A stretch of 64,000 nt of DNA from Gammaproteobacteria bacterium (GTDB lineage Bacteria > Pseudomonadota > Gammaproteobacteria > Ga0077536). Shown here piece by piece: positions 3,589 to 22,508 of this stretch; position 1 is the stretch's first letter; every line of letters begins with the position of its first letter. The translations under genes and the position numbers were made by a program. The notes beneath the pieces are model-generated. The model saw only the letters and a list, made by a program, of their open reading frames with translations. It was not told the DNA's origin and did no database searches. The stretch spans positions 19,363 through 83,362 of the forward strand of contig SHZM01000001.1 of the NCBI GenBank assembly GCA_009692265.1, written 5' to 3'.

Positions 3589-4428
3589 ATGGACAGCAAC
3601 GTGATCACGGACAAGACCATTGGCCAATACCTGATAGATCGCCTGTGCGAAGCCGGTGCCCGTCACTGCTTCGGGGTACCGGGTGATTACATCCTCGGGT
3701 TTTATGATCTGATGGTCCACAGCCAGCTCACCCATATTGACACGACCCGTGAAGACACCGCCGCGTTTGCCGCCGATGGTTATGCCCGGTTATAAGGCTT
3801 GGGCGCGCTCGCCGTAACCTATGGAGTCGGCGCGTTGAACGTCGTGAACGCAGTCGCGGGTGCCTACGCCGAGAATTCGCCGGTGGTAGTGATCAGCGGT
3901 GCGCCCGGCGTTAGCGAAGCCGCCAACGATCCATTACTGCATCATCGCTTCGGGCCGTTCTCATTCCAGCGCGAAATTTTTCAACGCATTACCTGTGCCC
4001 AAGCAGTCTTGGACGATCCGTTGATCGCATTCCGACAAATCGATCGCACCTTGGCCGCCGCCCGGCGGCAGCGATTGCCGGTTTATATTGAGTTACCGCG
4101 TGATCAGGTCCGTGTAGCGGGCTACCCGGTACCGGTGGAGGCCGAGGTGGAGGCGGGTTCCGATCCGGCGACGTTGCGCGAAGCAGTGGATGAATGCTGT
4201 GCCCTATTGGAGAAATGCCAAACGCCGGTCCTGATTGCGGGCCAGGAACTGCATCGCCGCGGCTTGCAAGACGCCCTCATTGAGTTCGTCACGCGCACCA
4301 ACATTCCAACTGCCGCAACCCTGACCGGGAAATCGGTCATTGGCGAACGACATCCGTCGTACCTTGGGGTATATGAAGGCGCGATGAGTTCCGCCGCATC
4401 GCCAAAAAGCTGTTGCTTGATCTCGTAG
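3589..4428 (+). pseudogene. Indolepyruvate/phenylpyruvate decarboxylase family (TPP enzyme) remnant. It has an in-frame TAA at 3793..3795 and is truncated after about 277 of the roughly 550 expected codons.
   Basis: The translation matches the IPDC/PDC N-terminal and middle domains (FGVPGDY...ADGYARL*GLGALAVTYGVGALN...HHRFGP). The stop sits where the family has K/N. Homology ends near 4395-4400, where the antisense of the repeat-protein gene begins. Confidence 0.7.
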
Positions 4429-7334
4429 GTGTTGAAACCAGGTGTGCCGCTAACAGTGTTGTAGTCCGCGTACACCACCACGTAATTGCCCTGGCCGAGA
4501 TCCGCGATTGCGGGGCGATACTCGGTGCCATCAGTGCTCGACAGCAGCTTGCGTTGGCCATCGATCGCGACTCCGGCCGAGGTGTGTTCACGGATGTAGA
4601 CATCCGTGGTCGTGCCGACGTTTGGGATCACATCGTAGTTGTCGTTGTACCAGGTCACGACGAAGCCGCCGGTGGAGAGCGCCGTCACGTCTGGCTGGTA
4701 TTGACCGCCGATGGTCGACTCGTTGACCAGGAACTCGCCGCCGAGCTTGGCACCCGCCGCGGTGAAGCGCTGCCCGATTACCGCCTGACCGCTGTTGTCG
4801 CTGGCATCATTACCATCCGACGGCCATACCACCACGAACGTGCCGTCCGCCAGCACCGCGACGTTCGACACGTACTCGCCATTGTTCGCAATACTCTGGT
4901 TTCCCACCGTGGTGGTGTTGACCAGGAAGGTGTCGCCAAAGGTCCCACCCGCCGCGTTGAAGATCCGGCCATACACGCCGTGGCCCGCGCCGTCGTTACC
5001 GCCCTCGTCGGACCATACGATGATGAGATTGCCGTTCGCGAACGCCGCTATATCCGGGGTGTACTGGTTGCCGGTTTGGGGGTTTACCGTGCCGAGAATA
5101 TTGCTAATCCGGGTCTCGACCGTGACCACGGCCCCCGCGTTGTCGTAACGCTTCAAGTAGATGTCGTGGCTGCTACCGTCCGGATTCGTGTTTGACGACC
5201 ACACCGCCGCAAAGCCGCCCGCGTAGCCCGCGACATTGGTGTGGAACTGGTTATTGCTGGTGAACGTGTTGACCAGGAAGTTCCCACCCTGCGCCACGCC
5301 GCTCGCGTTGTAGCGCTGACCATACGCGCCGTAGGACGAACCATCGTTCAGATTGTCCTGTCACGCGACGACATAGCCGCCATCGGAGAGGCTCGCGAGC
5401 TGCGGGTAGTTCTGAATTCCGTTGGTCAGACTATTGACCCGGAATTCAGCGCCTAGCGCGAGACCCTGCGCGGTAAAACGCTGGACGTAGACGCCTTCCT
5501 GATTGCCGTCCTGGTCATCCGAATTCCAGGCCACGACATAACTGCCATCCGTTAAGGTTGCCACCGTCGGATAGGTCTGTTCAGCTGGCGTGTACGTGGT
5601 GACCTGGCTCTCACCGTAGACTACCGGTGCGCCATCCAGTTCCTTGGTGATATTCACCGTCAAGGTGCTGGCATCGCTGACTCCGCCGTCGCCGTCGCTG
5701 ACCCGTAGGCCCAGGGTCCGGCTAGCCAGCGGACTGGACGATGAATTGCCATAACCCAGGCGTTGCAGCGGGGCCTCGACCGCATCCACCGTCGCATTCG
5801 CATTCAACGTGATCGTGAGGCTCGCGCCGTTGACCCCGCCGGCGATTGTGCCGATCGTCGTACCGCCAAAACTGACATTCGCGCCCGCCACCCCGATCTG
5901 GCCAAAGCCGTTGCCCTGATGGACTACGCCGAGTTGGTCGTCGGTATTATTCGCGCCCTGTACGAAGAACAACTGCACCTGGCCGCCGTCGAAGTTCGCC
6001 GAATCCAGATCCGCGACGCTGACCGCGGAATCGAGCACTTGCAGGCTCGCGTTGACCAGGTTCTCGCCGAAGGTGACCACCCCGGCGAAGTCCCCGACGT
6101 CTGGGTTGGCTTGACGGGGTAGTTCGGCGGCAGTGCCGAACAATTGCTGGAAGATGCCTGCCGCAGAGCCGTCCTGCGGTTGATCAGAGCGCCACACCAC
6201 CACATAGTTATCGCTGCCGATGTGCGCGATCGCGGGCTCGTATTGAGCCCCGGAGGGCGTCCCCGTATCGGCCTTAAGTTGGCCACCCAGCGCGTTCCCG
6301 CTGGCGTCATATTCGCGAACGTAGACGTCGGCGGTGGTGCCTACCCCTTGAACCACGCCGTAGTTATCGTTGTACCAGGTGACAACAAAGCCGCCATTCG
6401 CCAAGGCTTCCACATCGGGCTGGTACTGGCCGCCGGTCGTCGATTCATTGACCCGAAATTCGCCGCCATCTAGCGCACCGGCTGCCGTATAACGCTGACC
6501 GTAGACCCCGGCACTGGACCCGTCTTGGTTATCGGAGCGCCAGACCACGACAAATCCGCCACCGGTGAGAAGCGCGACCTTCGGTTCGTACTGGGGACCC
6601 GTGACGAATGTATTGACGCGGAATTCGTTGACCCCGCCGGTGAGGATGGGCGTCCCCGTGGCGTCATAGCGCTGGGCGTAGACGCCATCGGTCCCGCTAT
6701 CTTGGGACTGCGATCGCCACACCACCACAAAGCTGCCGTCTGCGGCGGTTGCTACATCGGATTCAGTTTGGTAGTTGGCGAGGGTGGTATTAACCCGGAA
6801 TTCGTTGAGGCCATTGGTGAGCACCTGGACACCGGCATTGGTGTAGCGCTGCGCGTAAATGCCGTAGGAGCTGCTGGCCGCGTCCTGGAAGGAACTCCAG
6901 GTAACGATGAAGCCGCCGTTGTACGCACTGATGGCCGGTTCGTACTGGGTACTGGCGGTGATGGTGTTGACTCTGAACTGACTGCCCTGGGGCAGCGCGT
7001 TGGCGTCGTAGGCTTGCGCGTAGACCCCGTAGGAACTGCCGTCATTCGCGACTTGATCGGTCCACGTAATGACGAAGCCGCCGTTTGAGCGCCCGGTGAT
7101 AGTCGGTAGATACTGCGTGCCACCTGCAGTGCTATTAACCCGAAACTCCGGGCCGGTGGCGATGCCGCTCACCGTAAAGCGCTGCGCGTAGATGCCGTAG
7201 CTACCATCCGGATCCTGAACCTGGGAGATCCAGGTCACCACATACCCGCCCCCTGAGAGCGCCGCAACCGCGGGGTCATATTGGTTGCTATTGAAATAGG
7301 TATTGACTTGGTCTTCGTTATAGACGGCAACCAT
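4122..7334 (-). pseudogene. Giant tandem-repeat (about 47-aa repeats, likely extracellular) protein gene. It is interrupted by an in-frame TGA at 5361..5363, and its 3' end is lost: the frame reads into antisense of the IPDC-like remnant below about 4400.
   Basis: ORFs 5361..7334 and 4122..5297 are in the same frame (7334-5297 = 2037 = 679x3). The TGA replaces the Trp of the repeat consensus GG(F/Y)VV(T/V/A)W. About 15 repeats fit EFRVN.T..GxQ..P.V..L..GGFVVxWxS...DGS..GVYAQRY. The final stretch below 4400 has no repeat signature. Confidence 0.7.
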
Positions 7335-7906: not shown

Positions 7907-9325
7907 TTACTCCACCTCGTCATAAATAAACAATGGGCCTTCGAGCAAACGACCGAAGGGGCGATAGCGAAACACGCTGCTCGCGGCACGCGGATCCAGC
8001 AGGAGTGGAATTATCCTTCGGCTCGGTTGCGCCAGAGGTATTCGCAGGGTACCTGGGTCGAGCACAACCTTGCCTGCCCACGGTTGCCAAGGCGAAGCGG
8101 CCTCCTCGGGTGAAATCCCTTTTGGGAACACTCGTGTCTGCACGCTTCGTCGCTCCGCGCGCGAAATAGTTTCGAATTTGATCCCGTGTCGTGCCAACAC
8201 CGCGCCGAACAAATTCACATGCGCGTTGATGACATACGCAGGCGGCAGGACAACCAGATCTTCGATCACGCAGGCACGGTGATCGGCAAACTGCCTCTCG
8301 ACTAACTCTCCAGTCGCATGCCGACGTAGCGGTATGCTGAGTTCCGGCATGTTTACGTTCGGCACGAAACGCGCGTTTAACGGGAGTTCACTTGGCACCT
8401 CACCGGCCGCGAGCTTAAGGACTTCTCTGATTTGCACTGCGCGTTCACTCACACAGGCCAAAAACACCTGCAAACACAGACGCTGCTTATCGACTCGCAC
8501 GCCGATATTGCGGTAGGTCGGATAGTGGCCCGCTTTGGGTTCCATCGGCGTTTCGAGCAGGATAGTCAGCGGCCCGCGGATCCCCGCTTTATTGCGGAAC
8601 TTGCGGATCGTGAAGCCGCCATGGGTGAGCGGTTGAGTGAGCGAGGTAATCTCACGGATATAACGCTGGGCGCGTAAGCCGCGCTGCGTAACACCTGCGA
8701 TTAAGGCCGGAAGTAACGTGCTTTCCAGATAGCGGCGGTTCACCGCCGGAATTGCCGGTGTATTCGCCACATCGAACTGCGCTTCGAAATCCGTCAAGTA
8801 ACCTTCGCGACCTAAAGTCTTGCTCTTGTAACTCGCCGACTCATGCGCATCGAGGATGACATCGGGCGCGAAATCGATCACCGCCGCATCGAGTGCGCAA
8901 CTCTCGGGCTGCGTCAGTAAGACATAGTCGCGATTGAGATTGACGTCGTTGCCGTTCTTGCTTGAATCGAGATCACGGCCGTCGGGGTTCGCGTTGGGAA
9001 TGAAGATCAGTTCCAGATCCTCAAGCAGTTCGCGCCGCTCGCCGAGCAGCACGTCGCGTGCGAGAAATAATAGCGCTTCACAGCCCGCCGCTTCCGAAGC
9101 GCCATGTTGCGAGCCGACCAGCATGACTCGCAGTTTCGCGGTGCGAAGCGGCTGCGCGCAAATCAAGGCCTGGAGTGGACGCCCCTGGGCTGAGCGCCCA
9201 AGGGTTTGCAGACGGGCAACCTTCGGCGCAAGCGCCGCGAGTTGTGCCAAATAGGCCGCGACGTCAGCCGAACTCGAATACGCCTGGAAACGCTGCGTTT
9301 CGAGCGGCGTCGGCGGTAGCTTCAC
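7907..9325 (-). CDS. M14 family zinc metallocarboxypeptidase (paralog 1, no signal peptide)
   Basis: 472 aa. M14 motifs present: GSQHGASEAAG (HxxE zinc site), IPNANPDGR, NLNRDY, DAHESAS, LETPME. The GTG start at 9325 overlaps the stop of the upstream paralog (GTGA). Confidence 0.75.
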   Translation of the reverse strand: MKLPPTPLETQRFQAYSSSADVAAYLAQLAALAPKVARLQTLGRSAQGRPLQALICAQPLRTAKLRVMLVGSQHGASEAAGCEALLFLARDVLLGERRELLEDLELIFIPNANPDGRDLDSSKNGNDVNLNRDYVLLTQPESCALDAAVIDFAPDVILDAHESASYKSKTLGREGYLTDFEAQFDVANTPAIPAVNRRYLESTLLPALIAGVTQRGLRAQRYIREITSLTQPLTHGGFTIRKFRNKAGIRGPLTILLETPMEPKAGHYPTYRNIGVRVDKQRLCLQVFLACVSERAVQIREVLKLAAGEVPSELPLNARFVPNVNMPELSIPLRRHATGELVERQFADHRACVIEDLVVLPPAYVINAHVNLFGAVLARHGIKFETISRAERRSVQTRVFPKGISPEEAASPWQPWAGKVVLDPGTLRIPLAQPSRRIIPLLLDPRAASSVFRYRPFGRLLEGPLFIYDEVE

Positions 9326-10884
9326 CGGAGGCGACGCGTCGCGCCTTTGTATGTGCGATAGACGAAGAAATCTTCCTCCGGTTGCACCAGCGCGGAATAC
9401 TCTGGGTAGCGAAAGATGCTGCTGGTCGAGCGCGGATCCAGCAATAACGCCGCGTAGCGTCCGTTGGGTTGCGTGAGATCGATGAACACACCGCCGGGTT
9501 CGATCTCGAGTGCGCGACGGTTTTCTGAAGTCATCTTCACTTGGTCGAGAATATTTGGCCGGCTCTCAAAACGCGCGGCGATGACGTCCGCGCTGGTGGG
9601 CTGGGTCAGACTCCAAAAACTAATGCCATGTCGTTCGAGCACATCGCGCAGCTTACCCACGTGTTGAGTGATGACCAGCATCGGCGGATAGGGGATCCGG
9701 TCGCCGGTCACCAGCTTTCGATGATCACGAAATTCAATCGACTCCAATTCGCGGGTATCGAGGCGGCGCATCGGGATTGAGACCTTTGGGTGCTCAGGAT
9801 CGACCACATAACCCGCGAACAAGGTAAGCGGCTCTTTATGCAAACCGCTGCGTGCCTCAACCACGCGGGTTGCGAGGATCGCCCGCCCCTCGTGCATCGA
9901 TTTAAGGAAGGTGCGAATGCACAGCAGCTGCCGCTCGACCCGCACCACGATATTGCGATACGTCGGGTAGGTGTCTTCGCGTGAATCGAGTTTGGTCTCC
10001 ACCAGAAACGAGATCGCGCCGCTCATGCCCGCGGTATTGCGGAAATTGCGCAGGGTCAGACCGCCGTGGGTGATCGGCTGTTTAAGGCTGATGATTTCGC
10101 CGATATAGCGATGCGCGGGCAATCCACCAGCGGTGACCCGTGCAATGAGTTCGGGCAACAAGGTCTGTAGCGCGTAGTCGCGCACCACGGCTGGCACGGA
10201 CGGGTTATTGCTGAATTCAAACTGCGCATCGAAATCGGTTAGGTAACCATCGCGCGCCAGAGTCTTGCGTTTCAGGACTGCGGATTCGTGCGAGTCCAGC
10301 ACGGCAGCGGGTCGATATTTTTCGAGCATGTCCTTGAGGATGCGGGTCTCCGGTTGCGACAGCAGGACAAAGTCGGTGTTGATATTGATGCCGTTGGCGT
10401 TCGCGCGCTTCTTATTATCGCGACCGTCGGGGTTCGCGTTCGGAATCAAAATCACATCGACATCGTCCAACAGCGGACGTAAGTCGCCCGCCACGAGTTC
10501 GCGCGCGATCACTAACAACGCTTCGCCACCTGCCGGCTCGGCGGCACCATGTTGTGAGCCGATCACCACGAGCTTCGGGCGTTTAAGTTCTTTCGATCGC
10601 TTTGTCTTTAAGACCAGGGCCTCGAGCACGCGTCCCTGTACTGACTTGCCGAGGTCGTCTTTACGCGCGAGGGTGGGGTAGTGCGCGACGATGGTGTCCA
10701 AGTACGTGGTGATCTCGGCGGAGGTGCTGATTCGAGAGTTTGCGTTCAGCTCGAGCGGCGTGAGCAGCGGGGGTGCGGCGTTCAGCTGTGAGGTGAACAG
10801 GAGTACCGTGACTAACGAAGGTAGGGTGCCGATTCTTGTGAGGTTGATCATGGTCGGTGTTTTACTCGAATTAATGGGTTTCAT
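9322..10884 (-). CDS. M14 family zinc metallocarboxypeptidase (paralog 2, with signal peptide)
   Basis: Paralog of the previous gene with the same motifs (GSQHGAAEPAGGEA, IPNANPDGRD, NTDFV, DSHESA, FLVETK). The N-terminus MKPINSSKTPTMINLTRIGTLPSLVTVLLFTSQLNAAP is signal-like. An alternative start at 10851 (MINLTR) is possible. The longer track ORF reaching 10968 reads through the REP element and was rejected. Confidence 0.7.
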   Translation of the reverse strand: MKPINSSKTPTMINLTRIGTLPSLVTVLLFTSQLNAAPPLLTPLELNANSRISTSAEITTYLDTIVAHYPTLARKDDLGKSVQGRVLEALVLKTKRSKELKRPKLVVIGSQHGAAEPAGGEALLVIARELVAGDLRPLLDDVDVILIPNANPDGRDNKKRANANGININTDFVLLSQPETRILKDMLEKYRPAAVLDSHESAVLKRKTLARDGYLTDFDAQFEFSNNPSVPAVVRDYALQTLLPELIARVTAGGLPAHRYIGEIISLKQPITHGGLTLRNFRNTAGMSGAISFLVETKLDSREDTYPTYRNIVVRVERQLLCIRTFLKSMHEGRAILATRVVEARSGLHKEPLTLFAGYVVDPEHPKVSIPMRRLDTRELESIEFRDHRKLVTGDRIPYPPMLVITQHVGKLRDVLERHGISFWSLTQPTSADVIAARFESRPNILDQVKMTSENRRALEIEPGGVFIDLTQPNGRYAALLLDPRSTSSIFRYPEYSALVQPEEDFFVYRTYKGATRRLR

Positions 10885-10893
10885 CGACCGAAT

Positions 10894-10962
10894 AAGAAAA
10901 TCCCCCTCAGTCCCCCTTTGACAAAGGGGTCGGCGCGCAGCGGCGGGGGACTTAGCGCGCAG
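10894..10962 (+). repeat. REP/MITE-like element (copy B, forward orientation)
   Basis: AAGAAAATCCCCCTCAGTCCCCCTTTGACAAAGGGGTCGGCGCGCAGCGGCGGGGGAC. It carries the same core as copies A and C. It sits between the bclA stop and the M14 paralog-2 start. Confidence 0.75.
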
Positions 10963-10967
10963 ATTCA

Positions 10968-12542
10968 CTACCCCGCCCGCAATCTGAACCGCTGAATCTT
11001 GCCGGTCGCCGTTTTCGGAAGCTCTGGGACAAATTCAAACCAGCGCGGGTACTTGTGTGGCGCAAGCTGCGTTTTCACATGCGCCTTCAATGCTGCTTCC
11101 AATTTCGGCACTCCGTGGCCCTTGCTCTTCAATACGACAAATGCTTTCGGTTTGATCAATCCCTCCGCGTCCGCCATGCCGACCACCGCCGCTTCGAGCA
11201 CGGCTGGGTGTGACATCAGCGCGGCTTCGACTTCGAACGGTGAAACGTATTGGCCGCTGACTTTGAGCATGTCGTCAGAGCGCCCACCGTAGGTGTAGTA
11301 GCCCTCCGCGTCGACCGTGTATTTATCACCCGCGCGGGTCCATGCGCCCATAAAGGTTTCACGCGATTTCTCGCGACTGTTCCAATACATCACGGCCGTG
11401 CTCGGACCGTTGATCTGGAGTTCGCCCAGACCAGGTCCCGTAATTTCTTGGCCTTGCTCATCGCACAGCCGGATTTGATAACCCGGGACGGGTTTACCCG
11501 TCGTACCGTAACGCACGTCGCCAGGCCGGTTCGATAAAAAAATATGCAACATCTCGGTCGAACCAATGCCGTCGAGGATGTCCACTCCAAAGTGGGCGGT
11601 AAAGCGTCGCCCGACGTCGGCGGGCAGCGCTTCACCCGCTGAGGTGCAGATCCGTAACGCGACTGTCGAGCGCTCGGGTAACCTTGGGCTCGCGAGCATC
11701 GCGGCATAGAGCGTCGGTACCCCGTAGAAAATCGACGGCTGCAAGTCGACCAGGCGTTTGAACACCGCCTCCGGGGTTGGCCGCTCGGCCATCAAGATCG
11801 CAGTGGCGCCAACCGCCAACGGGAACGTCAGGCTATTGCCTAGGCCATAGGCGAAAAATAATTTCGCGGCCGAGAACACCACATCCTGTTCAGTAATCCC
11901 GAGAATAGGACGTGCATACAGCTCAGCGGTGTGAAGCAAGCTCGAATGCACATGCACCGTACCCTTCGGGGGGCCGGTCGAACCGGAGGAGTACAGCCAG
12001 AAGCACACCTCACCCGCCGTGGTGTCGACCGGCTCGGCGGTGGGCTCGGCGGCCGCCATTAACTGGCCTAACACGGGATATCCATGTGCACCGGCCGTGG
12101 CAATAACATGCTTCAGCGATCGTGCTTCCGCGAGCGCCGGTGCAAACGTTTCCAGCAACGGTGCGGAAACGAACAGGGCTTTCGCGCAACTGTCGTCGAG
12201 CATGAAGCGGTAATCATCGCTGGTTAGCAGGGTATTCACCGCGATCGGTACGATCCCGGCTTTGATAGCGCCCAGGAACACGCTTGGAAAATCGATCGTG
12301 TCGTGTAGCGCGACCATAACCCGATCTTCGGGTTCAAGACCAAGCGCGCGCAGCGCATTGGCGGCACGATTCACGCGCGCGACTAGTTCGCCGTAAGAAT
12401 ACCGGCCGGCGTCATCGATATATGCGATTTTTTCGGCGCGGCCCGCCCGTAGGTTTCGTTCCAGGAGGTCATGCGCGGCGTTATAGCGACGCGGAATTTC
12501 AATCAACGGTGGCGAGACCGTGTGGTCGGCGCGAGACAACAT
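10968..12542 (-). CDS. bclA: Benzoate-CoA ligase family (aromatic acid:CoA ligase)
   Basis: 524 aa adenylate-forming enzyme with YSSGSTGPPKG, GTTGKP and a C-terminal ...KTATGKIQR. Length and motifs match the benzoate/4-hydroxybenzoate-CoA ligase family. It neighbours boxR/boxC/boxB. Confidence 0.8.
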   Translation of the reverse strand: MLSRADHTVSPPLIEIPRRYNAAHDLLERNLRAGRAEKIAYIDDAGRYSYGELVARVNRAANALRALGLEPEDRVMVALHDTIDFPSVFLGAIKAGIVPIAVNTLLTSDDYRFMLDDSCAKALFVSAPLLETFAPALAEARSLKHVIATAGAHGYPVLGQLMAAAEPTAEPVDTTAGEVCFWLYSSGSTGPPKGTVHVHSSLLHTAELYARPILGITEQDVVFSAAKLFFAYGLGNSLTFPLAVGATAILMAERPTPEAVFKRLVDLQPSIFYGVPTLYAAMLASPRLPERSTVALRICTSAGEALPADVGRRFTAHFGVDILDGIGSTEMLHIFLSNRPGDVRYGTTGKPVPGYQIRLCDEQGQEITGPGLGELQINGPSTAVMYWNSREKSRETFMGAWTRAGDKYTVDAEGYYTYGGRSDDMLKVSGQYVSPFEVEAALMSHPAVLEAAVVGMADAEGLIKPKAFVVLKSKGHGVPKLEAALKAHVKTQLAPHKYPRWFEFVPELPKTATGKIQRFRLRAG

Positions 12543-12559: not shown

Positions 12560-13033
12560 TTAAAGCCGACGTAGCACTGCGGTCCAGACGTTCGCAACTC
12601 CGGGCAGGGTCGCGATGTCGGTACTACCGCTTAGCTCCGAGACCTCAGGCTGCCCATACCGACCCTGGTCCAGGCGATAACGAGTGACGCTGCGATCGGT
12701 GGGGTGCACCAGCCAATATTCGCGCACGCCGTGGCCTTCGTAGAGTGCGCGCTTGACGACCTGATCATGCGCGGCGGTGAACGGCGAGAGGATCTCCACA
12801 ATCCAATCCGATTGCACGACGGTATCGATTTCGTCGTCTGCTTCGTGGTGGCGAGGAAGTCGAATATCTAGCGGTGCGACGAATAAGCGGCTCGGCCCAT
12901 CACGTAATGCTTGATCAAGCTGACCAGCCATCGCGTAGGCGATCCCATCAATCAATTCGTAGCGGCGATTATCAGACCATGTGCAGTAATCGCCGTAGGT
13001 ATGTCGTTCATCATCGCGACGTGCAAGGCCCAT
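12560..13033 (-). CDS. Uma2 family (DUF820) restriction-endonuclease-fold protein
   Basis: The core YGDY..W...RRYELIDG...PLDIRL...DWIVEILSP...D..VK...Y...GV.EYWLV is typical of Uma2. The chosen start is the ATG at 13033; the track ORF extends to 13129. Some usual segments look shortened, so it may be degenerate. Confidence 0.55.
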   Translation of the reverse strand: MGLARRDDERHTYGDYCTWSDNRRYELIDGIAYAMAGQLDQALRDGPSRLFVAPLDIRLPRHHEADDEIDTVVQSDWIVEILSPFTAAHDQVVKRALYEGHGVREYWLVHPTDRSVTRYRLDQGRYGQPEVSELSGSTDIATLPGVANVWTAVLRRL

Positions 13034-13074
13034 ACTCGGCTCCGTATTCGTGTTTGCAAGTGCCCTAGTCAATC

Positions 13075-13551
13075 TTAAGCTGCGACGGCGTGCTCCGCAC
13101 GAACCAGCGCAAACCACGGGCCAATCCATGCTGCCGCAAATTCTTCCGGCATCAAACCCGCGGAAGCATCGTGTTCCAGCACTTCGCCGACTCTGCGCGC
13201 ACCTAACTTGGTCAGGATCTGATCGAAGCGACGGCCACCGAAGCAGTAAGTCTGCGCGTGCGATGAGTCCCCCAGCGAGACCAGGCCGTAGCGGATCCCA
13301 GTGAGATTGGGTCTGTCCTTGACTAGCGACTCGTAGAGCTTCTTGGCGTTGGCCGGCACATCGCCGTAGCCATAGGTGGACATACAGACTAAGTAGATCG
13401 CCGCTGGCTCGAACACCTTCGCGTCGAGCTCGTCCATTTGCAGGATCTCGCCTTGCGCACCCGCTTGTTGGAGATTGAAGTGGGCTTCTTCGGCGACGTA
13501 TTGGGTGTTGCCAGTGGTCGTGCCGACTAGGATCCGGACGGTAATCGCCAT
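13075..13551 (-). CDS. Flavodoxin, MioC-like FMN-binding protein
   Basis: ATG at 13551 gives MAITVRILVGTTTGNTQYVAEEA...STYGYGDVP.N, which aligns with E. coli MioC. The longer track ORF reaching 13635 was rejected because it reads into an AT-rich intergenic region. Confidence 0.75.
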   Translation of the reverse strand: MAITVRILVGTTTGNTQYVAEEAHFNLQQAGAQGEILQMDELDAKVFEPAAIYLVCMSTYGYGDVPANAKKLYESLVKDRPNLTGIRYGLVSLGDSSHAQTYCFGGRRFDQILTKLGARRVGEVLEHDASAGLMPEEFAAAWIGPWFALVRAEHAVAA

Positions 13552-17690: not shown

Positions 17691-18200
17691 CTATGTAGAG
17701 GCATCAAGCTGAAAAACGATGATCGGGATGCCGCGCTCGCCCGCTCTATCGCGGTAATTTTCGAATCCCGGATAGATCGAAAGCGCTTTGCGCCATAGAC
17801 GATTGTGCTCCTCGCCCAAGGCGACTTCAGTCGCGTGGTAGCGACCGTGCACACCATAAAAATCTAACTCGACTTCGGGGTTCGCGCGAACATTGAATAG
17901 CCAGCCGGGATGCGTGGTTCGTCCCCAATTCGCGGCCAACACGACGATGTCGTCGCCATCCTGGATCCCAATTAATGGCACCTTCCGGTGCTCACTACTG
18001 CGCGCACCAACCATCGACAAACCTACGACGGGAAGTCCGACTACCGCGCGTGGAATTGACCAATGTTGTCGCGTCGCGGCCATCAACACGCGATCGACGT
18101 GATGTAGTACCTTGGCGAGGGCCGCCGCGCCGCGAGGCGAAGCTGGGAAAGATTGGAATGAGCGCTGCCAATCGTGTTGCCGTACGGCTATTTGCGTCAT
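17691..18200 (-). CDS. Deazaflavin (F420H2)-dependent oxidoreductase, nitroreductase family (DUF385/FDOR-type split barrel)
   Basis: ATG at 18200 gives 169 aa. It contains the family signature HPGWLFNVRANPEVELDF...YH.TEV...E.NRLW.....YPGFENY......IPIIVFQLD. The 218-aa track ORF extends upstream without support. Confidence 0.7.
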   Translation of the reverse strand: MTQIAVRQHDWQRSFQSFPASPRGAAALAKVLHHVDRVLMAATRQHWSIPRAVVGLPVVGLSMVGARSSEHRKVPLIGIQDGDDIVVLAANWGRTTHPGWLFNVRANPEVELDFYGVHGRYHATEVALGEEHNRLWRKALSIYPGFENYRDRAGERGIPIIVFQLDAST

Positions 18201-18371: not shown

Positions 18372-19238
18372 ATGTCGCAGGTCGCATTTAAGCTCGGTGT
18401 CCTCAAACTTGGCTGCATTGGCGCGGCACCCTTGCTCGATTTATTGCTCGACGAGCGTGCGGATCGCGACGATCTGGAAGTTCGTGCGTACACCTGCGGT
18501 GCGAAATTAGATGCAGCCTCCTGTGCCGACCCGACCCGCGAGATCCTGGCGTATCGCCCACAGTTGGTCTTGTTAGTCAGCCCCAATGCTTCGCTCGCCG
18601 GGCCAACGAATTCGCGAAAGCTTCTCGGTGAAGCGGGGATCCCGATCATCACATTGTCCGATGGCCCGTCTAAAAAAGCCTTCTTCAAGAAAAACGACGA
18701 GGGCAAACAGGTTAAACAAGTCCCGCCCGGTCAGGGTTTCATGATCTTTCCGGCCGATTCGATGATCGGCGCACGCCGCGAATTTCTCGATCCGACCGAG
18801 ATGTCGTTGTTTAACGCCGATGTGATCAAAGTGCTCGCCGCGAGTGGTGTACTGCGGCTGGTTCAAACTGAACTCGATAGCGTGATTGAAGCGCTCAAAG
18901 CGGGAACTACGCCAACTTATCCCAACGTGACGGTCACGCCGGAGAAGGCAGTCGCCGCCGGCGGATTCGGCAATCCGTATGCGGCAGCGAAAGCGTATGC
19001 CGCACTCTCGATCGCGGAAGCCGTCTCCGCGGTGACCACCGATGGTTGTTTTAAGGAACAAGACCCACAACGCTACATTCCGATGGTCGCGGCCGGCCAT
19101 GAAATGATGCGGATGGCGGCGCGGTTGGCCGATGAAGCGCGGGAGCTGGAGAAAGGTGCGAATAGTCTATTGCGCACCCCGCATGGTGCTGATGGCTCCG
19201 TGCGCAGTAAGCGTGGGTTGGCGGATAAACCTGAATAA
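18372..19238 (+). CDS. F420-dependent methylenetetrahydromethanopterin dehydrogenase (Mtd) family protein, i.e. an archaeal-type Mtd homolog
   Basis: 288 aa with very strong similarity to methanogen Mtd along its whole length: KLGCIGAAPLLDLLLDERADR, MIGARREFLDPTEM, NADVIKVLAASGVLRLVQ, NPYAAAKA, GCFKEQDPQRYIPMVAAGHEMMRMAARLADEARELEKGANSLLRTPHG. Confidence 0.75.
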   Translation: MSQVAFKLGVLKLGCIGAAPLLDLLLDERADRDDLEVRAYTCGAKLDAASCADPTREILAYRPQLVLLVSPNASLAGPTNSRKLLGEAGIPIITLSDGPSKKAFFKKNDEGKQVKQVPPGQGFMIFPADSMIGARREFLDPTEMSLFNADVIKVLAASGVLRLVQTELDSVIEALKAGTTPTYPNVTVTPEKAVAAGGFGNPYAAAKAYAALSIAEAVSAVTTDGCFKEQDPQRYIPMVAAGHEMMRMAARLADEARELEKGANSLLRTPHGADGSVRSKRGLADKPE

Positions 19239-19253
19239 ACGCGTCGAGAGTTC

Positions 19254-19350
19254 AAGAAAATCCCCCTCAATCCCCCTTTTTCGAAGGGGGAGGACTACCG
19301 ACTCACCCCCTTTGAAAAAGGGGGTCATCGCGCAGCGGCGGGGATTTTTC
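19254..19350 (+). repeat. REP/MITE-like element, full-length copy C with about 9-bp terminal inverted repeats (AAAATCCCC ... GGGGATTTT) and two internal hairpins. It lies between convergent genes and is a probable bidirectional terminator.
   Basis: AAGAAAATCCCCCTCAATCCCCCTTTTTCGAAGGGGGAGG...TCACCCCCTTTGAAAAAGGGGGTCATCGCGCAGCGGCGGGGATTTTTC. It shares both modules with copies A and B. It starts 16 nt after the mtd-like stop and abuts the aldolase stop at 19350. Confidence 0.75.
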
Positions 19351-20099
19351 TATTTCAATGCCTCGCGCACCGCACTCGCACCCTGTCGCAGAAACAGTGT
19401 ATCCACACCGCACGCGATGAAAGTAAAGCCCGCCGCGATGCGCGGAATGACCCACTCCGGCGAGGTTGCGAAAAAACCCAACGTTAGGTTCGCGGCCAAA
19501 GTAACATCCGCGACCCGCTTAATCGCGGCCACGACTTCGGGATGGTCGAGTTGCCCCAGCCGGCCCATGCTCGCGGATAAATCGTAGGGGCCGACAAACA
19601 CCGAATCGAGCCCGGGTACCTGCACGATCGCCTCGATGTTATGAACAGCGTCGATGTGCTCGGCTTGTACAATCACGGCGGTCTCGTCATTCGCACGCGC
19701 GACGTATTCGGCAACCGCATAACCATACCCGTTCGCACGCGCAACCCCGACCCCGCGCCGTCCTTGCGGTGGAAACTTCGCGCCGGCCACGATCGCCGCC
19801 GCCTGCTCCGCAGTATTCACCTGCGGGACGATTATCCCAGCGGCACCGGCATCGAACGCACGCTTGATCCCGATCTCGTCGTGATTCGGCAAACGAACCA
19901 CGCACGGCAGGCCGTGCGCAGCGATGATCAGGTGTTGCAGTTCAGCCGGTCCGACCGGCGCGTGTTCGGTTTCCAGGAATAACCAATCGAAGCCGCATCC
20001 CGCTAAAACTTCTATCGCTTCGGGCGATGCGAGGCTTGCGATTGTGCCGATCAATACCTCGCGTTGTCGCAGTCGTGCGCGAAATGAAAGCTCACTCAT
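19350..20099 (-). CDS. HpcH/HpaI aldolase family protein (2-keto-3-deoxy-acid aldolase type)
   Basis: 249 aa with the TIM-barrel aldolase pattern (DWLFLETEHAP...AAGIIVPQVNTAEQA..IV...KFPPQGRRG). Its start overlaps the upstream gene's stop (ATGA). Confidence 0.7.
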   Translation of the reverse strand: MSELSFRARLRQREVLIGTIASLASPEAIEVLAGCGFDWLFLETEHAPVGPAELQHLIIAAHGLPCVVRLPNHDEIGIKRAFDAGAAGIIVPQVNTAEQAAAIVAGAKFPPQGRRGVGVARANGYGYAVAEYVARANDETAVIVQAEHIDAVHNIEAIVQVPGLDSVFVGPYDLSASMGRLGQLDHPEVVAAIKRVADVTLAANLTLGFFATSPEWVIPRIAAGFTFIACGVDTLFLRQGASAVREALK

Positions 20100-20899
20100 G
20101 CCTCGACCTTAAATGCTTTCGTCCACTCCTTGCCTTGCGAGTCGATGACATCGGCTTTCAGTTCGCCGCCCTTATGTGGCTTGAAAAAGAACCGAAAGCT
20201 CGGGTCCTCGCTGATCGAGATCCCAGTTTCCGCCGTCATAATCAGCGCATCGTTGAAATACAGTTTCCACGATTTCACGAAATGGGCCGGCCGAATCAAC
20301 TGTGTTTTCTGATCCTTTTGCATACCAGTGATGTTCGGATGCGAGAGCATCAACTGCCCGATGATGGCGTCCTCCGGCGTGCGCTCACCGACGGTGCGGA
20401 AATTGATTTGACCGATGCGTTCCATCGCCGCCTGCAGATCCGAGCCCAACGGTGCGGAACACCCGCCTTGGGCCTTCACGAAGTTACTCACGATGTGATG
20501 CTCGCCCGAGTTCAACACTGCAATCGCACGCACGTTAGTGTAATTGTCGATCCGGATCCTGAGCGCCAAATCGGCGCGTCCGATTTCGGGAGTAAGGTTA
20601 AATACGCCGGCTAGCGGCTCGGGATTATTATCGACAACGAGGTAGATTTTTTCGATGAAGCGTTCCGCGGTTTGCGGAAACTGAGCGCGAATGGTGACTG
20701 GGGTGAACGCCGCGTCTTCCGCGCGATAAGGCGTTTTCATTTCGATGACCGTGGTGTCTTCGATTAACACCTTGTCGGCGAAGTACTTGGGTTTGAGGAA
20801 AGTAGCCCACACATCGACCGGGGATTGCTCGGCGGCGATGACCGATTGCGCTATCAGCCCGCCGAGGAATATCCCTAAAACCGGGAACCTAACCATCAT
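20096..20899 (-). CDS. SoxY-SoxZ fusion (SoxYZ-like sulfur-carrier) periplasmic protein
   Basis: ATG at 20899 after GGAG. Signal peptide MMVRFPVLGIFLGGLIAQSVIAAEQ. The SoxY-like half ends in the carrier motif VKAQGGCS. The SoxZ-like half is IRPAHFVKSWKLYFNDALIMTAE...FRFFFKP. This resembles quinoprotein-dehydrogenase-associated SoxYZ-like carriers. Confidence 0.55.
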   Translation of the reverse strand: MMVRFPVLGIFLGGLIAQSVIAAEQSPVDVWATFLKPKYFADKVLIEDTTVIEMKTPYRAEDAAFTPVTIRAQFPQTAERFIEKIYLVVDNNPEPLAGVFNLTPEIGRADLALRIRIDNYTNVRAIAVLNSGEHHIVSNFVKAQGGCSAPLGSDLQAAMERIGQINFRTVGERTPEDAIIGQLMLSHPNITGMQKDQKTQLIRPAHFVKSWKLYFNDALIMTAETGISISEDPSFRFFFKPHKGGELKADVIDSQGKEWTKAFKVEA

Positions 20900-21069
20900 G
20901 AAATACTCCAGCAATTGACGTACCGCGGAATGCCAAGCATCGATTTTGACCGCTGACCGAGGCGATAATTCACTCCGGCTCTACCTTTCAAGGTCTCGTT
21001 CGCAGGGATTGTATCGACTGCGTCGGCTCAAGACCAAGACGTTCGTCCAAATCTCACTGGTGGCGAGAA

Positions 21070-22032
21070 TCAGTCATTGAAATGGCGGTACCCGGTGGTG
21101 GGCAACTGCATGGGGCGGCCCTCGGTGTCTAGCAGACTCACGATGCCGGGTGCTGCCGTCATTACGCCGATCGGGTATAGCGGCACGCTTGACCTTGTTG
21201 TGGCCATTAAGTCTGCCATGCGATCCGAAGGCACGGTGAAGCACAACTCGTAGTCATCGCCGCCAGTCGCCGCCAAGGTAAGGAGTTCACGGCCCTCAAA
21301 CAGGCTGCTGAGCGCTGTGGATCTTGGAATTCGTGATGCCTGGATTTCAGCGCCACAGTGGCTTCGTTCCGCGAGATGACCAACGTCCGCCAGCAACCCA
21401 TCCGAGATATCGATACAACTCGTGGCCACGCCGCGCAGCGCGACCCCAAGCGACACGCGCGGGCTCGGCCGCGCAAAACGATTGATCAAGGATTTCGCAG
21501 CCTCGCTAAATTGCGCGCCGCGTTGTAATAGCGCGAGTCCCCCGGCGGCATCGCCCAAGGTACCGGAAACACACACCAGATCTCCCGGGCGCGCGCCGTG
21601 CCGAGTCAAGGCCTGTCCAGTGGGAATGCCGCCGATGATCTGCACGGTGATGGTGAGCGGACCTCGCGTGGTGTCGCCGCCGATCAAGCTGCTGTGAAAG
21701 GGCGCGAGTGCTTCGTGCAAGCCGCGCGCGAATTCGCCTAGCCAGCGTTCATCGTTGTCCGGAACGGTTAAGGCGAGGGTTGCCCAACGTGGTTCGGCAC
21801 CCATCGCGGCGATGTCGCTTAAATTGACTGCGACGGCGCGGTAGCCGATGTCGGTGGGATCAAGTTCCGCGGGGAAATGTACGCCGGCGACGAGGGTGTC
21901 GGCGACGATGACGAGTTCTTCACCGGGTAGTGGACGCACTACCGCGCCATCGTCGCCGATGCCGAGGATGACGTCTGAACGTGCGCCGCCTAGCGGTTTG
22001 AATAGGGCTTCGATTAGGGCGAATTCATTCAT
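21070..22032 (-). CDS. thiL: Thiamine-monophosphate kinase
   Basis: 320 aa ThiL-like (AIR-synthase-related fold; DDGAV...VADTLVAGVHF). The ATG overlaps the nusB stop (ATGA), as in the nusB-thiL operon. Confidence 0.9.
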   Translation of the reverse strand: MNEFALIEALFKPLGGARSDVILGIGDDGAVVRPLPGEELVIVADTLVAGVHFPAELDPTDIGYRAVAVNLSDIAAMGAEPRWATLALTVPDNDERWLGEFARGLHEALAPFHSSLIGGDTTRGPLTITVQIIGGIPTGQALTRHGARPGDLVCVSGTLGDAAGGLALLQRGAQFSEAAKSLINRFARPSPRVSLGVALRGVATSCIDISDGLLADVGHLAERSHCGAEIQASRIPRSTALSSLFEGRELLTLAATGGDDYELCFTVPSDRMADLMATTRSSVPLYPIGVMTAAPGIVSLLDTEGRPMQLPTTGYRHFND

Positions 22033-22508
22033 GAAAATCCCCCCGAAAATCCCCCCGCCGCGGGTTCAGCGTGCGCGTTCTGTTCAACCGTGCGGAGGGC
22101 GCGCGCGACTTTGTCCAACACGCCGTTGACGTACTTGTGTGCTTCGTCGGCACCGAACATCTTGCACAGTTCGATTGCCTCGTTGACGACGACGCGCCAT
22201 GGAATTTGCGGGCAAAAGCGTAGTTCGTAGGTGCCGACCAGTAGCACGCTGCGTTCCACCGGACCTAGCTTCATCCAGTCGCGATCGAGTGCGGGGCGAA
22301 TATCTTGCAGCAGAATCTCGATTTGATTCGGGATCTCGCGGGTCAGGGTCGAAAAATATTCGAGGTTGACGCGGACGAGTTCACGTTCGGCAACGAATTC
22401 GCGCAGAATTTCATTCGGATCCTGTCCGGCGAGCTGCCATTGATACAACGCTTGAACGGCACAGCGACGCGCTCGAATTCTTCCTTCATGCCCACCGGTT
22501 TTGCTCAT
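22029..22508 (-). CDS. nusB: Transcription antitermination factor NusB, with an unusual C-terminal extension
   Basis: The NusB core is ARRCAVQALYQWQLAG...YVNGVLDKVA. About 20 extra residues follow, ending GGFSGGFS. That tail is encoded by the duplicated REP fragment at 22031..22062. Confidence 0.9.
   Translation of the reverse strand: MSKTGGHEGRIRARRCAVQALYQWQLAGQDPNEILREFVAERELVRVNLEYFSTLTREIPNQIEILLQDIRPALDRDWMKLGPVERSVLLVGTYELRFCPQIPWRVVVNEAIELCKMFGADEAHKYVNGVLDKVARALRTVEQNAHAEPAAGGFSGGFS
22031..22062 (-). repeat. REP/MITE-like element fragment (copy D) carrying a tandem duplication of GAAAATCCCCCC. It lies inside the nusB 3' end and thiL start.
   Basis: GAAAATCCCCCCGAAAATCCCCCCGCCGCGGG matches the reverse complement of the right end of copy C (GCAGCGGCGGGGATTTTTC). 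Confidence 0.6.

What the first reader, a model, noticed from the sequence alone, without database searches (positions are those of the whole stretch)
19350..20899. SoxY-SoxZ fusion carrier co-transcribed with an HpcH/HpaI aldolase where pgpA usually follows thiL
Downstream of nusB-thiL the conserved partner pgpA is missing. In its place is a two-gene operon with an ATGA overlap. The first gene is a periplasmic SoxYZ-like carrier, with signal peptide, SoxY Ig-fold ending in GGCS, and a SoxZ-like half. The second is a cytoplasmic-type HpcH aldolase. SoxYZ-like fusions are normally associated with quinoprotein dehydrogenases or sulfur oxidation, not with C-C lyases. The pairing and the location at the core/accessory boundary suggest an inserted module of unknown function.
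Basis: partly seen in the sequence, partly recalled or inferred. Interest (0 to 1): 0.5.

Follow-up and report, generated by a model that had tools for sequence, protein, structure and literature searches.

The report
SoxYZ-like carrier plus aldolase after thiL
Two real, overlapping genes follow thiL, one for a secreted SoxYZ-type cysteine carrier and one for a cytoplasmic pyruvate aldolase; the pairing is an old, inherited feature of one uncultured gammaproteobacterial lineage rather than a recent insertion, and its function is still unknown.

Summary
Gene 20096-20899(-) encodes a 267-aa secreted SoxY-SoxZ fusion. It scores 241 bits on TIGR04557 (cutoff 140), and Cys147 in GGCSAP is invariant. 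Gene 19350-20099(-) encodes a catalytically intact HpcH/HpaI-type aldolase. The two overlap by ATGA. pgpA is absent.

Composition is native. The carrier sits downstream of nusB-thiL in all 58 orthologous loci from related uncultured Gammaproteobacteria, and it is more conserved than NusB.

An NJ tree suggests the aldolase joined a pre-existing thiL-carrier arrangement once. It is adjacent in 37 of 58 loci, was lost in one sub-clade, and is split by selfish genes in two close relatives.

In a distant clade of the same family, 0 of 80 loci have HpcH and 71-74 of 80 have a SoxH-like metallohydrolase directly upstream. No quinoprotein dehydrogenase or metallohydrolase lies in this 64-kb window.

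Best reading: a co-transcribed, vertically inherited pair whose products act in different compartments, a periplasmic swinging-arm Cys carrier and a cytoplasmic aldolase. A shared pathway is not excluded.

This is a new genomic context for a known but uncharacterised family. Interest is modest. The adjacent bacterial F420-type Mtd homologue may be more unusual.

The parts
20096..20899 (-). Gene for a 267-aa secreted SoxY-SoxZ fusion carrier. The signal peptide is aa 1-22 (nt 20834-20899). The SoxY-like domain is aa 43-152 and the SoxZ-like domain aa 179-268.
   Evidence: Pfam and NCBIfam hits. Identical to database protein P0001. AlphaFold2 model pLDDT 82.8; the N half matches SoxY 2ox5_Y (TM 0.83) and the C half matches SoxZ 1v8h/2ox5_A (TM 0.77-0.81).
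20459..20461 (-). TGT codon of the carrier cysteine Cys147, in the motif KAQGGCSAPL.
   Evidence: Invariant in 36 orthologues and present in 116 of 118 aligned full-length sequences. Residues 146-150 are the only internal segment with pLDDT below 50, which fits a flexible arm.
19350..20099 (-). Gene for a 249-aa cytoplasmic class II (metal-dependent) pyruvate aldolase of the HpcH/HpaI family.
   Evidence: PF03328 1.9e-34. Below the HpaI, GarL and RhmA equivalog cutoffs. 154 bits to YfaU 2vws. H46, R69, E147 and D173 invariant in 48 relatives.
20096..20099 (-). ATGA stop/start overlap joining the two genes.
   Evidence: Read directly from the sequence.
19239..19349 (.). Structured spacer between the convergent HpcH and Mtd genes. 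Two G5/C5 hairpins are nested in an outer stem. Probable bidirectional terminator that ends the transcript.
   Evidence: RNA MFE -50 kcal/mol, z = -3.3 against shuffles. The motif is unique to this place in the window. The simple terminator scan did not flag it, as there is no T-run.
20900..21069 (-). 170-nt spacer between thiL and the carrier gene. No terminator-like site and no consensus promoter were found, so read-through from nusB-thiL is possible.
   Evidence: no Rfam family. By eye there is a weak candidate promoter, TTGGTC-N18-TACAAT. That is inference only.
21070..22508 (-). Upstream context genes thiL (21070-22032) and nusB (22029-22508), which anchor the conserved synteny.
   Evidence: TIGR01379 thiL 335 bits. 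The NusB assignment rests on the precomputed Pfam call PF01029 on this same contig and on L002-L005 and on tblastn.
18372..19238 (+). Convergent neighbour: an F420-dependent methylene-H4MPT dehydrogenase (Mtd) homologue. It is context for the finding. Whether it is functionally linked is unknown.
   Evidence: NF002162 333 bits against a cutoff of 297. 225 bits to M. kandleri Mtd 1qv9. Present in 14 of the 42 HpcH-adjacent loci, and also in L007, where HpcH lies 2.5 kb downstream, and in L025, which has no HpcH.

Best explanation
These are two genuine genes that are probably co-transcribed. Transcription would start from read-through of nusB-thiL and/or a weak promoter of their own, and would end at the hairpin cluster at 19239-19349.

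Gene 1 makes a periplasmic SoxY-SoxZ fusion. It most likely works like SoxYZ: the invariant Cys147 sits on a flexible GGCSAP loop between the two beta-sandwich domains, carries a covalently bound group, and presents it to partner enzymes. The bound group is most likely sulfane or oxidised sulfur, and possibly another thiol-reactive species. The partner enzymes are encoded elsewhere in this genome. In basal relatives and in the rest of the family, the partner is a SoxH-like zinc metallohydrolase encoded next door.

Gene 2 makes a cytoplasmic divalent-metal aldolase. It interconverts a 4-hydroxy-2-oxo acid with pyruvate plus an aldehyde.

The pairing is a lineage-specific, vertically inherited arrangement. 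The carrier was already fixed next to thiL, the aldolase was added downstream once, and it has mostly been kept. Because the products act in different compartments, I take them as co-expressed but not as consecutive steps of one pathway.

Shown here: gene structure, domains, Cys conservation, fold, catalytic residues, synteny statistics and native composition. Inferred: periplasmic location, the swinging-arm mechanism, co-transcription and the lack of a direct biochemical link.
For: - Domains and family membership.
- ATGA overlap.
- Cys147 and signal peptides conserved.
- Model with a SoxY half, a SoxZ half and a disordered Cys loop.
- Aldolase about 150 bits to YfaU, HpaI and GarL, with invariant catalytic residues.
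- Carrier downstream of thiL in 58 of 58 orthologous loci, and HpcH adjacent in 37 of 58.
- Mean identity to the window proteins: carrier 64.9%, NusB 61.7%, ThiL 50.3%, HpcH 57.9%.
- Single origin of the HpcH adjacency on both the HpcH and the carrier NJ trees.
- An antitoxin gene and a DUF4143 ATPase gene sit between the two genes in the closest relatives, L006 and L007, and both genes stay intact.
- HpcH relatives at 57-59% identity stand alone in unrelated contexts (L087, L089).
- Eight carrier paralogues with at least 8 kb of upstream sequence visible are not thiL-linked and never have HpcH.
- Native GC3.
- No terminator-like site between thiL and the carrier.
Against: - The adjacency has survived where everything further downstream was reshuffled between sub-clades A and B.
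- In sub-clade B the genes for the carrier, HpcH, an RraA-like aldolase, a secreted 124-aa Cys protein and a secreted cupin are packed with 4-nt overlaps. That looks like one operon serving both compartments and hints at a shared process.
- Published work already links SoxYZ fusions to carbon (alcohol and C1) metabolism rather than sulfur (PMC11237559).
- No transcript data were available, so co-transcription is not demonstrated.
- The chemical group carried on the Cys is unknown for the whole family.
Confidence: 0.5

Rival explanations
1. The pair is a functional module that spans the membrane. The periplasmic carrier and the cytoplasmic aldolase would serve one pathway, for example the handling of a reactive aldehyde or 2-oxo acid. 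In sub-clade B the RraA-like aldolase, the secreted cupin and the 124-aa protein would also take part. In sub-clade A, Mtd might. The carrier thiol would capture or deliver the compound outside the cell, and the aldolase would make or consume it with pyruvate inside.
For: - Single gain, with the pair retained in 37 of the roughly 46 informative crown-clade loci (hand count from the tree), always immediately downstream, on the same strand, with short gaps.
- Interleaved periplasmic and cytoplasmic genes with 4-nt overlaps in L005.
- Elsewhere the family sits beside aldehyde-producing PQQ dehydrogenases and C1 enzymes (PMC11237559, PMC12997753).
- Mtd, a C1 enzyme, lies within the held locus (0.8-8 kb downstream) in 14 of the 42 HpcH-adjacent loci, and also in L007 and L025.
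Against: - The two products are in different compartments, and no transporter is encoded in the window pair.
- HpcH was lost in one sub-clade while the carrier stayed.
- The pair is split by selfish genes in L006 and L007.
- The whole nrdR-rib-nusB-thiL-carrier block is syntenic in this lineage, so adjacency alone has low specificity.
- In L002 and L088, Mtd overlaps an Anbu proteasome gene rather than HpcH.
Confidence: 0.3
2. The carrier belongs functionally to the nusB-thiL unit or to a general housekeeping role in the periplasm, such as thiol or sulfur homeostasis. On this reading HpcH is a passenger.
For: - The carrier-thiL linkage is 58 of 58, stronger than the carrier-HpcH linkage.
- The carrier is more conserved than NusB in 44 of 58 loci.
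- No terminator-like site lies between thiL and the carrier.
- A membrane-anchored or secreted DsrE-like protein with a conserved Cys (DFKxC) is encoded between thiL and the carrier in many relatives.
Against: - In many loci 1-6 kb of unrelated genes (TPR protein, exosortase substrate, MBL) separate thiL from the carrier.
- Paralogous carriers are not near thiL.
- No known chemistry links ThiL to a periplasmic carrier.
Confidence: 0.12
3. The two genes are a recently acquired horizontal island that replaced pgpA.
For: - pgpA is absent.
- The carrier gene has the lowest overall GC of its neighbours, 0.544.
- Gene content downstream of the pair is variable.
Against: - GC3 is typical.
- The carrier is at this position in all 58 orthologous loci, and pgpA is absent from all related loci held at that point.
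- The trees indicate vertical descent and separate arrival of the two genes.
Confidence: 0.03

Closest known systems
[quoted passage not shown]
   Same: Same architecture: signal peptide, SoxY domain, KAxGGCSAP Cys loop and SoxZ domain with an HPNxxGxQ motif. The window protein scores above the family cutoff. The function of the family is unproven (PMC12997753, PMC11237559).
   Different: No PQQ dehydrogenase, MoxJ-like binding protein, rhodanese or SoxH-like metallohydrolase lies in the 64-kb window or within 10 kb in crown-clade relatives. Instead the gene is fixed after thiL and followed by an HpcH aldolase. The lineage has Gln before the GGC, where the family consensus is Ser or Ala.
Canonical SoxY/SoxZ heterodimer of the thiosulfate-oxidising Sox system (PDB 2ox5, 4uwq)
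   Same: Both halves share the fold (TM 0.77-0.84), and the carrier Cys follows a GG pair.
   Different: The two parts are fused into one chain, so the Cys arm is an internal loop rather than a free GGCGG C-terminus. Scores are below the SoxY_true cutoff (58.9 against 125) and the SoxZ_true cutoff (63.7 against 76). None of the larger window ORFs scanned against Pfam/NCBIfam is a Sox enzyme.
HpaI, GarL and RhmA(YfaU) class II pyruvate aldolases
   Same: TIM-barrel HpcH/HpaI family with about 150 bits to each. The catalytic His, the catalytic Arg and the two metal-binding carboxylates are conserved.
   Different: Scores are below every equivalog cutoff (202 against 369, 184 against 407, 162 against 441), so the substrate is not assignable. 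None of the neighbouring ORFs scanned against Pfam/NCBIfam belongs to a homoprotocatechuate, glucarate or rhamnonate pathway.

Membership tests
TIGR04557 SoxYZ-like fusion carrier | Profile score above the curated cutoff | tested here: met
   241.5 bits against a cutoff of 140.
TIGR04557 SoxYZ-like fusion carrier | SoxY and SoxZ domains on a single chain, with the corresponding folds | tested here: met
   Pfam PF13501 plus PF08770. The AlphaFold2 model halves match 2ox5_Y (SoxY) and 1v8h/2ox5_A (SoxZ).
TIGR04557 SoxYZ-like fusion carrier | Conserved carrier cysteine in the GGC(S)AP loop | tested here: met
   Invariant in 36 orthologues and present in 116 of 118 aligned full-length sequences.
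TIGR04557 SoxYZ-like fusion carrier | Export to the periplasm | tested here: inconclusive
   A Sec-type N-terminus with an AXA site is conserved in all orthologues. No signal-peptide predictor or experiment was available.
TIGR04557 SoxYZ-like fusion carrier | Genomic association with a PQQ quinoprotein dehydrogenase and a SoxH-like 'relay' metallohydrolase (TIGR04558/9) | tested here: not met
   None is present in the window. MBL lies upstream only in basal relatives L062, L068, L071, L072 and L078, and in L084. No PQQ-DH or MoxJ homologue is found in any related locus. The distant clade has MBL in 71-74 of 80 loci.
Canonical SoxY/SoxZ (Sox thiosulfate oxidation) | Scores above the SoxY_true and SoxZ_true cutoffs, a C-terminal GGCGG, and sox gene neighbours | tested here: not met
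   58.9 against 125 and 63.7 against 76 bits. The Cys is internal (GGCSAPL). None of the larger window ORFs scanned against Pfam/NCBIfam is a Sox enzyme.
HpcH/HpaI class II aldolase (PF03328) | Profile match and the catalytic His and Arg plus the metal-binding Glu and Asp | tested here: met
   119 bits against a cutoff of 25. H46, R69, E147 and D173 align with YfaU H49, R74, E153 and D179 and are invariant. The residue roles come from established knowledge of YfaU and HpaI.
HpaI, GarL and RhmA equivalogs | Score above the equivalog cutoff (defines substrate specificity) | tested here: not met
   202 against 369, 184-187 against 393-407, and 162 against 441 bits.
Two-gene operon | Same strand, overlapping stop and start, no intervening terminator, and one shared transcript | tested here: inconclusive
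   The ATGA overlap is shown. The transcript itself cannot be tested with these tools.

The most novel reading that the evidence does not exclude
SoxYZ-like fusion carriers may be protein-thiol carriers for reactive aldehydes such as formaldehyde, rather than sulfur carriers. On this reading, Cys147 would capture the aldehyde in the periplasm as a thiohemiacetal, analogous to glutathione-dependent formaldehyde oxidation. A SoxH-like glyoxalase-II-fold hydrolase would release the oxidised product.

In this lineage the system would have been re-wired to cytoplasmic aldehyde chemistry. The HpcH aldolase would condense the aldehyde with pyruvate, and a bacterial F420-dependent Mtd would oxidise methylene-H4MPT. 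That would explain why the family always sits beside aldehyde- or C1-handling enzymes.
Probability: 0.07. Interest if true: 0.75.

Novelty: new variant of a known kind. Interest (0 to 1): 0.35.

Why it matters
The SoxYZ-fusion family is widespread: 1320 clusters at 50% identity match at E<=1e-3, and 144 of them at E<=1e-30, the range where matches are full-length fusions. It is repeatedly noted next to lanthanide- and PQQ-dependent alcohol dehydrogenases, yet it has no assigned function.

This lineage shows that the carrier can be kept under very strong purifying selection, stronger than on NusB, without any adjacent quinoprotein dehydrogenase or metallohydrolase. That argues its role is not confined to quinoprotein maturation. 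It also gives a natural comparison set for phylogenetic profiling: basal loci with MBL, crown loci with HpcH, and paralogues with neither.

The practical value is as a lead. No mechanism has been demonstrated.

Tried and rejected
- Rfam found nothing in the whole window at gathering thresholds. In 19200-21150 at E<=1 there was only a chance snoRNA hit, so no riboswitch or leader explains the spacers.
- The consensus promoter and terminator scan gave nothing useful around the pair.
- I looked for PQQ dehydrogenase, MBL, rhodanese and sox genes among the larger window ORFs. All of those with a Pfam/NCBIfam hit were housekeeping or box-pathway genes.
- tblastn of the sub-clade-B genes against the window found nothing significant for DsrE-like, RraA-like, 124-aa protein or cupin; the ALS-like TPP query gave only a marginal hit (E 2.8e-4, 33% over 99 aa, at 3625-3900).
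- Greedy ORF calling in high-GC paralogue loci picked shadow ORFs and was abandoned in favour of targeted tblastn.
- A 51-sequence alignment of distant representatives was too diverse for the locus scan. I replaced it with a 22-sequence one.
- A literature search for HpcH together with SoxY found nothing relevant.
- I considered a thiamine link, prompted by the thiL adjacency and the TPP enzyme in sub-clade B, and rejected it as unsupported.
- I considered contamination or mis-binning as the source of Mtd and rejected it. The gene is flanked by proteobacterial genes and recurs in many independent MAGs.
Full report
**1. What is there**

On the minus strand, downstream of nrdR-ribD-ribE-ribBA-ribH-nusB-thiL, lie two ORFs (thiL is TIGR01379 at 335 bits).

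The first is 20096-20914 as listed from a TTG. Its real start is almost certainly ATG 20899. [quoted passage not shown] The second is 19350-20099 and is 249 aa. The stop of the first and the start of the second overlap as ATGA at 20096-20099.

**2. The carrier**

- Pfam finds SoxY (aa 43-152, 4.6e-30) and SoxZ (aa 179-268, 4.2e-26). NCBIfam TIGR04557 scores 241.5 bits against a cutoff of 140. The true SoxY and SoxZ models fall below their cutoffs.
- The N-terminus, MMVRFPVLGIFLGGLIAQSVIA|AE, has the layout of a Sec signal. All 36 aligned orthologues have one, followed by a conserved QSxVDVW start of the mature protein.
- Cys147 in VKAQGGCSAPL is invariant in those 36 sequences. It is present in 116 of 118 aligned full-length sequences, which are the query plus 117 representatives of the wider family at about 30-48% identity. 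The family motif is KA[SA]GGCSAP.
- An AlphaFold2 model has pLDDT 82.8 and pTM 0.79. It shows two beta-sandwich halves. Residues 146-150 (GCSAP) are the only internal stretch with pLDDT below 50, as expected for a flexible arm.
- Foldseek matches the N half to SoxY of the Paracoccus SoxYZ complex (2ox5_Y, TM 0.83). It matches the C half to SoxZ (1v8h and 2ox5_A, TM 0.77-0.81). By sequence search, no fused SoxYZ chain is in the PDB.

**3. The aldolase**

- PF03328 matches at 1.9e-34. The best NCBIfam hits are HpaI, GarL and RhmA, all far below their equivalog cutoffs.
- The protein scores about 150 bits against YfaU, HpaI and GarL structures.
- H46, R69, E147 and D173 align with YfaU H49, R74, E153 and D179. 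They are invariant in 48 relatives. The enzyme is therefore catalytically intact, but its substrate cannot be assigned.
- It has no signal peptide and no twin-arginine motif.

**4. Surroundings in the window**

- pgpA is absent. E. coli PgpA finds nothing by tblastn in the window or in any related locus held at that point, L001-L089.
- Convergent to HpcH is a full-length homologue of the archaeal F420-dependent methylene-H4MPT dehydrogenase Mtd (18372-19238). It scores 333 bits on NF002162 against a cutoff of 297, and 225 bits to M. kandleri 1qv9.
- Next come an F420H2-dependent reductase (DDN family) gene and boxB/boxC.
- The 111-nt spacer between HpcH and Mtd folds into nested G5/C5 hairpins (-50 kcal/mol, z = -3.3). 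It is probably a bidirectional terminator.
- The other larger ORFs of the window that have a Pfam/NCBIfam hit are housekeeping or box-pathway genes. None is a PQQ dehydrogenase, metallo-beta-lactamase-fold protein, rhodanese or Sox enzyme.
- Rfam finds nothing.
- GC3 is 0.69 for the carrier and 0.664 for the aldolase. The mean for 23 window genes is 0.663 with sd 0.031, so there is no compositional sign of recent transfer.

**5. Relatives and co-occurrence**

A scan of one genome per GTDB species found 266 relatives. The best 80 are all uncultured Gammaproteobacteria MAGs. tblastn with window and relative proteins gave the following counts:

- In 58 non-redundant loci with enough sequence on both sides, the carrier lies downstream of thiL, on the same strand and within 8 kb.
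- In 37 of those 58, HpcH follows within 300 nt on the same strand. In 21 it does not.
- Eight carrier paralogues with at least 8 kb of upstream sequence visible, and a few more on shorter contigs, are not near thiL and never have HpcH. Up to three copies occur per genome, at 46-60% identity. Their contexts are diverse.

The HpcH-positive loci fall into two types.

- Type A includes the window. It has carrier-HpcH with Mtd further downstream on the opposite strand, directly convergent with HpcH in the window. Fourteen loci are of this type.
- Type B has carrier, HpcH, an RraA-like aldolase, a secreted 124-aa two-Cys protein and a secreted cupin, then DinB and an ALS-like TPP enzyme. Several junctions overlap by 4 nt. 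Twenty-four loci are of this type.

In the closest relatives, L006 and L007 (88-89% carrier identity), an antitoxin gene and a DUF4143 ATPase gene are inserted between the carrier and HpcH. Both flanking genes remain intact.

In the reverse direction, HpcH homologues at 57-59% identity occur both with the carrier (L086, L088) and alone in unrelated neighbourhoods (L087, L089).

**6. History**

An NJ tree of HpcH places the carrier-linked types A and B as sister clades, with the unlinked homologues outside.

An NJ tree of the carrier, rooted on a canonical family member, gives this order:

- At the base are loci with a SoxH-like metallohydrolase directly upstream. L084 is from a Methylococcales MAG. 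L062, L068, L071, L072 and L078 are thiL-linked. Some basal loci carry a DsrE-like gene, and none has HpcH.
- Next is the clade of paralogues that are not linked to thiL.
- Last is a crown clade, A plus B, in which HpcH is present.
- Within that crown clade, HpcH has been lost again in one nested sub-clade (L033, L037, L041, L045, L047, L048, L055, L059) and in L025.

These are distance trees without support values, so the order of events is a best estimate. They imply that the carrier was already fixed beside thiL and that the aldolase was added once.

The carrier is the most conserved gene of the block. Mean identity to the window protein is 64.9%, against 61.7% for NusB, 50.3% for ThiL and 57.9% for HpcH.

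**7. Comparison with the known family**

I scanned metagenomes with an alignment of distant family members. That clade is about 35% identical to the window protein by my estimate.

- 0 of 80 loci have HpcH or thiL.
- 71-74 of 80 have a metallohydrolase directly upstream on the same strand. In L104 it scores 396 bits on TIGR04559, 'quinoprotein relay system zinc metallohydrolase 2'.
- PQQ dehydrogenase homologues occur in 21 of these mostly short contigs. MoxJ-like binding proteins occur in 28.

This matches the literature.

- PP_2677 and PP_2678 in the P. putida ped cluster have unknown function, with proposals that they act in maturation, redox control or protection of PQQ (PMC12997753).
- The SoxYZ-S2 and S4 fusions of lucinid symbionts lie beside PQQ-ADH, soxH, xoxF and fdh. 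Those authors suggest a role in carbon rather than sulfur metabolism (PMC11237559).
- A Sox(YZ) fusion also lies in a PQQ alcohol-catabolism cluster in Hyphomicrobium (PMC11582611).

The window protein therefore passes the sequence tests for the family. It fails the contextual feature that gives the family its name. No paper pairing HpcH with SoxY was found.

**8. Interpretation**

I favour, at about 0.5, a co-transcribed but mechanistically separate pair. One product is a periplasmic swinging-arm Cys carrier whose partner enzymes are encoded elsewhere. The other is a cytoplasmic pyruvate aldolase.

A genuine trans-membrane functional module, at about 0.3, is not excluded. Two observations support it: the adjacency persisted where everything downstream was reshuffled, and the type-B operon is tightly interleaved.

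A link to the nusB-thiL unit or a general periplasmic housekeeping role gets about 0.12. A recent horizontal island gets about 0.03.

The most novel reading still allowed is that these carriers handle aldehydes rather than sulfur, with HpcH and Mtd as the cytoplasmic arm. I put that at about 0.07.

**9. Verdict**

This is a new genomic context, and a lineage-specific sub-family, of a known but uncharacterised carrier family. Interest is modest at 0.35. The neighbouring bacterial Mtd homologue deserves its own look: a 2021 review lists Mtd as archaeal only (PMC8498797).

Noticed in passing
window 18372-19238 (+): Full-length homologue of the F420-dependent methylene-H4MPT dehydrogenase Mtd in a gammaproteobacterial contig. 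It scores 333 bits on NF002162 (cutoff 297) and 225 bits to M. kandleri 1qv9. A 2021 F420 review lists Mtd as archaeal only (PMC8498797). It is conserved at 64-81% identity in about 20 related MAG loci.
   Followed up: partly
window 17691-18200 (-): An F420H2-dependent quinone reductase / DDN-family gene lies next to Mtd. Together they suggest that this uncultured gammaproteobacterium uses F420. No F420 biosynthesis genes were seen among the larger window ORFs scanned against Pfam/NCBIfam.
   Followed up: no
L002 14225-15867 and L088 11495-13094: In relatives, the Mtd gene sits directly next to an Anbu-type proteasome homologue on the same strand, with a 4-nt overlap in L002 and a 5-nt gap in L088. 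They lie beside circularly permuted ATP-grasp, alpha-E and transglutaminase genes. This is an odd partner set for a C1 enzyme.
   Followed up: no
window 19239-19349: A 111-nt spacer between the convergent genes with two CCCCCTTT...AAGGGGG hairpins nested in an outer stem (-50 kcal/mol, z -3.3). It is unique in the window and matches no Rfam family. Probably a bidirectional terminator.
   Followed up: partly
L003 9390-9911, L005 9080-9631 and about 27 other loci: A gene for a DsrE-like protein lies divergently between thiL and the carrier in many relatives. The protein is membrane-anchored or secreted and has conserved VLHGPD and DFKxC motifs. It is a candidate sulfur-transfer partner and is absent from the window.
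   Followed up: partly
L005 12337-13214 and 30 other loci: A secreted protein of about 124 aa with two conserved Cys and no Pfam or NCBIfam hit follows the carrier, directly or after HpcH-RraA. It is often followed by a secreted cupin with a GDWHPAPRRQ...GxGHR motif.
   Followed up: partly
L006 about 2100-2800; L007 6641-8247: An AbrB/MazE-like antitoxin gene and a DUF4143 AAA ATPase gene are inserted between the carrier and HpcH in the closest relatives.
   Followed up: yes
L031, L073, L085 (one MAG); also L032/L077, L012/L083, L016/L075, L030/L082: Several MAGs carry two or three diverged SoxYZ-like fusion paralogues at 46-60% identity. The extra copies sit in unrelated contexts, including luciferase-like monooxygenase, CoA-transferase and GGDEF/EAL genes.
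   Followed up: partly
record titles of L007, L012, L015, L033, L037, L051, L076, L083: Public MAG records that hold this locus are labelled Klebsiella pneumoniae, Klebsiella sp., Enterobacteriaceae or Hydrogenophaga intermedia. These labels do not fit the gene content and are probably mis-assignments by the submitters.
   Followed up: no
window 4122-7334 (-) and 7907-10968 (-): Two large ORFs of 391 and 657 aa have no Pfam hit. They lie beside two tandem M14 carboxypeptidase-like genes of 472 and 548 aa. A Uma2-family endonuclease gene (12560-13129) sits inside the benzoyl-CoA (box) gene cluster.
   Followed up: no
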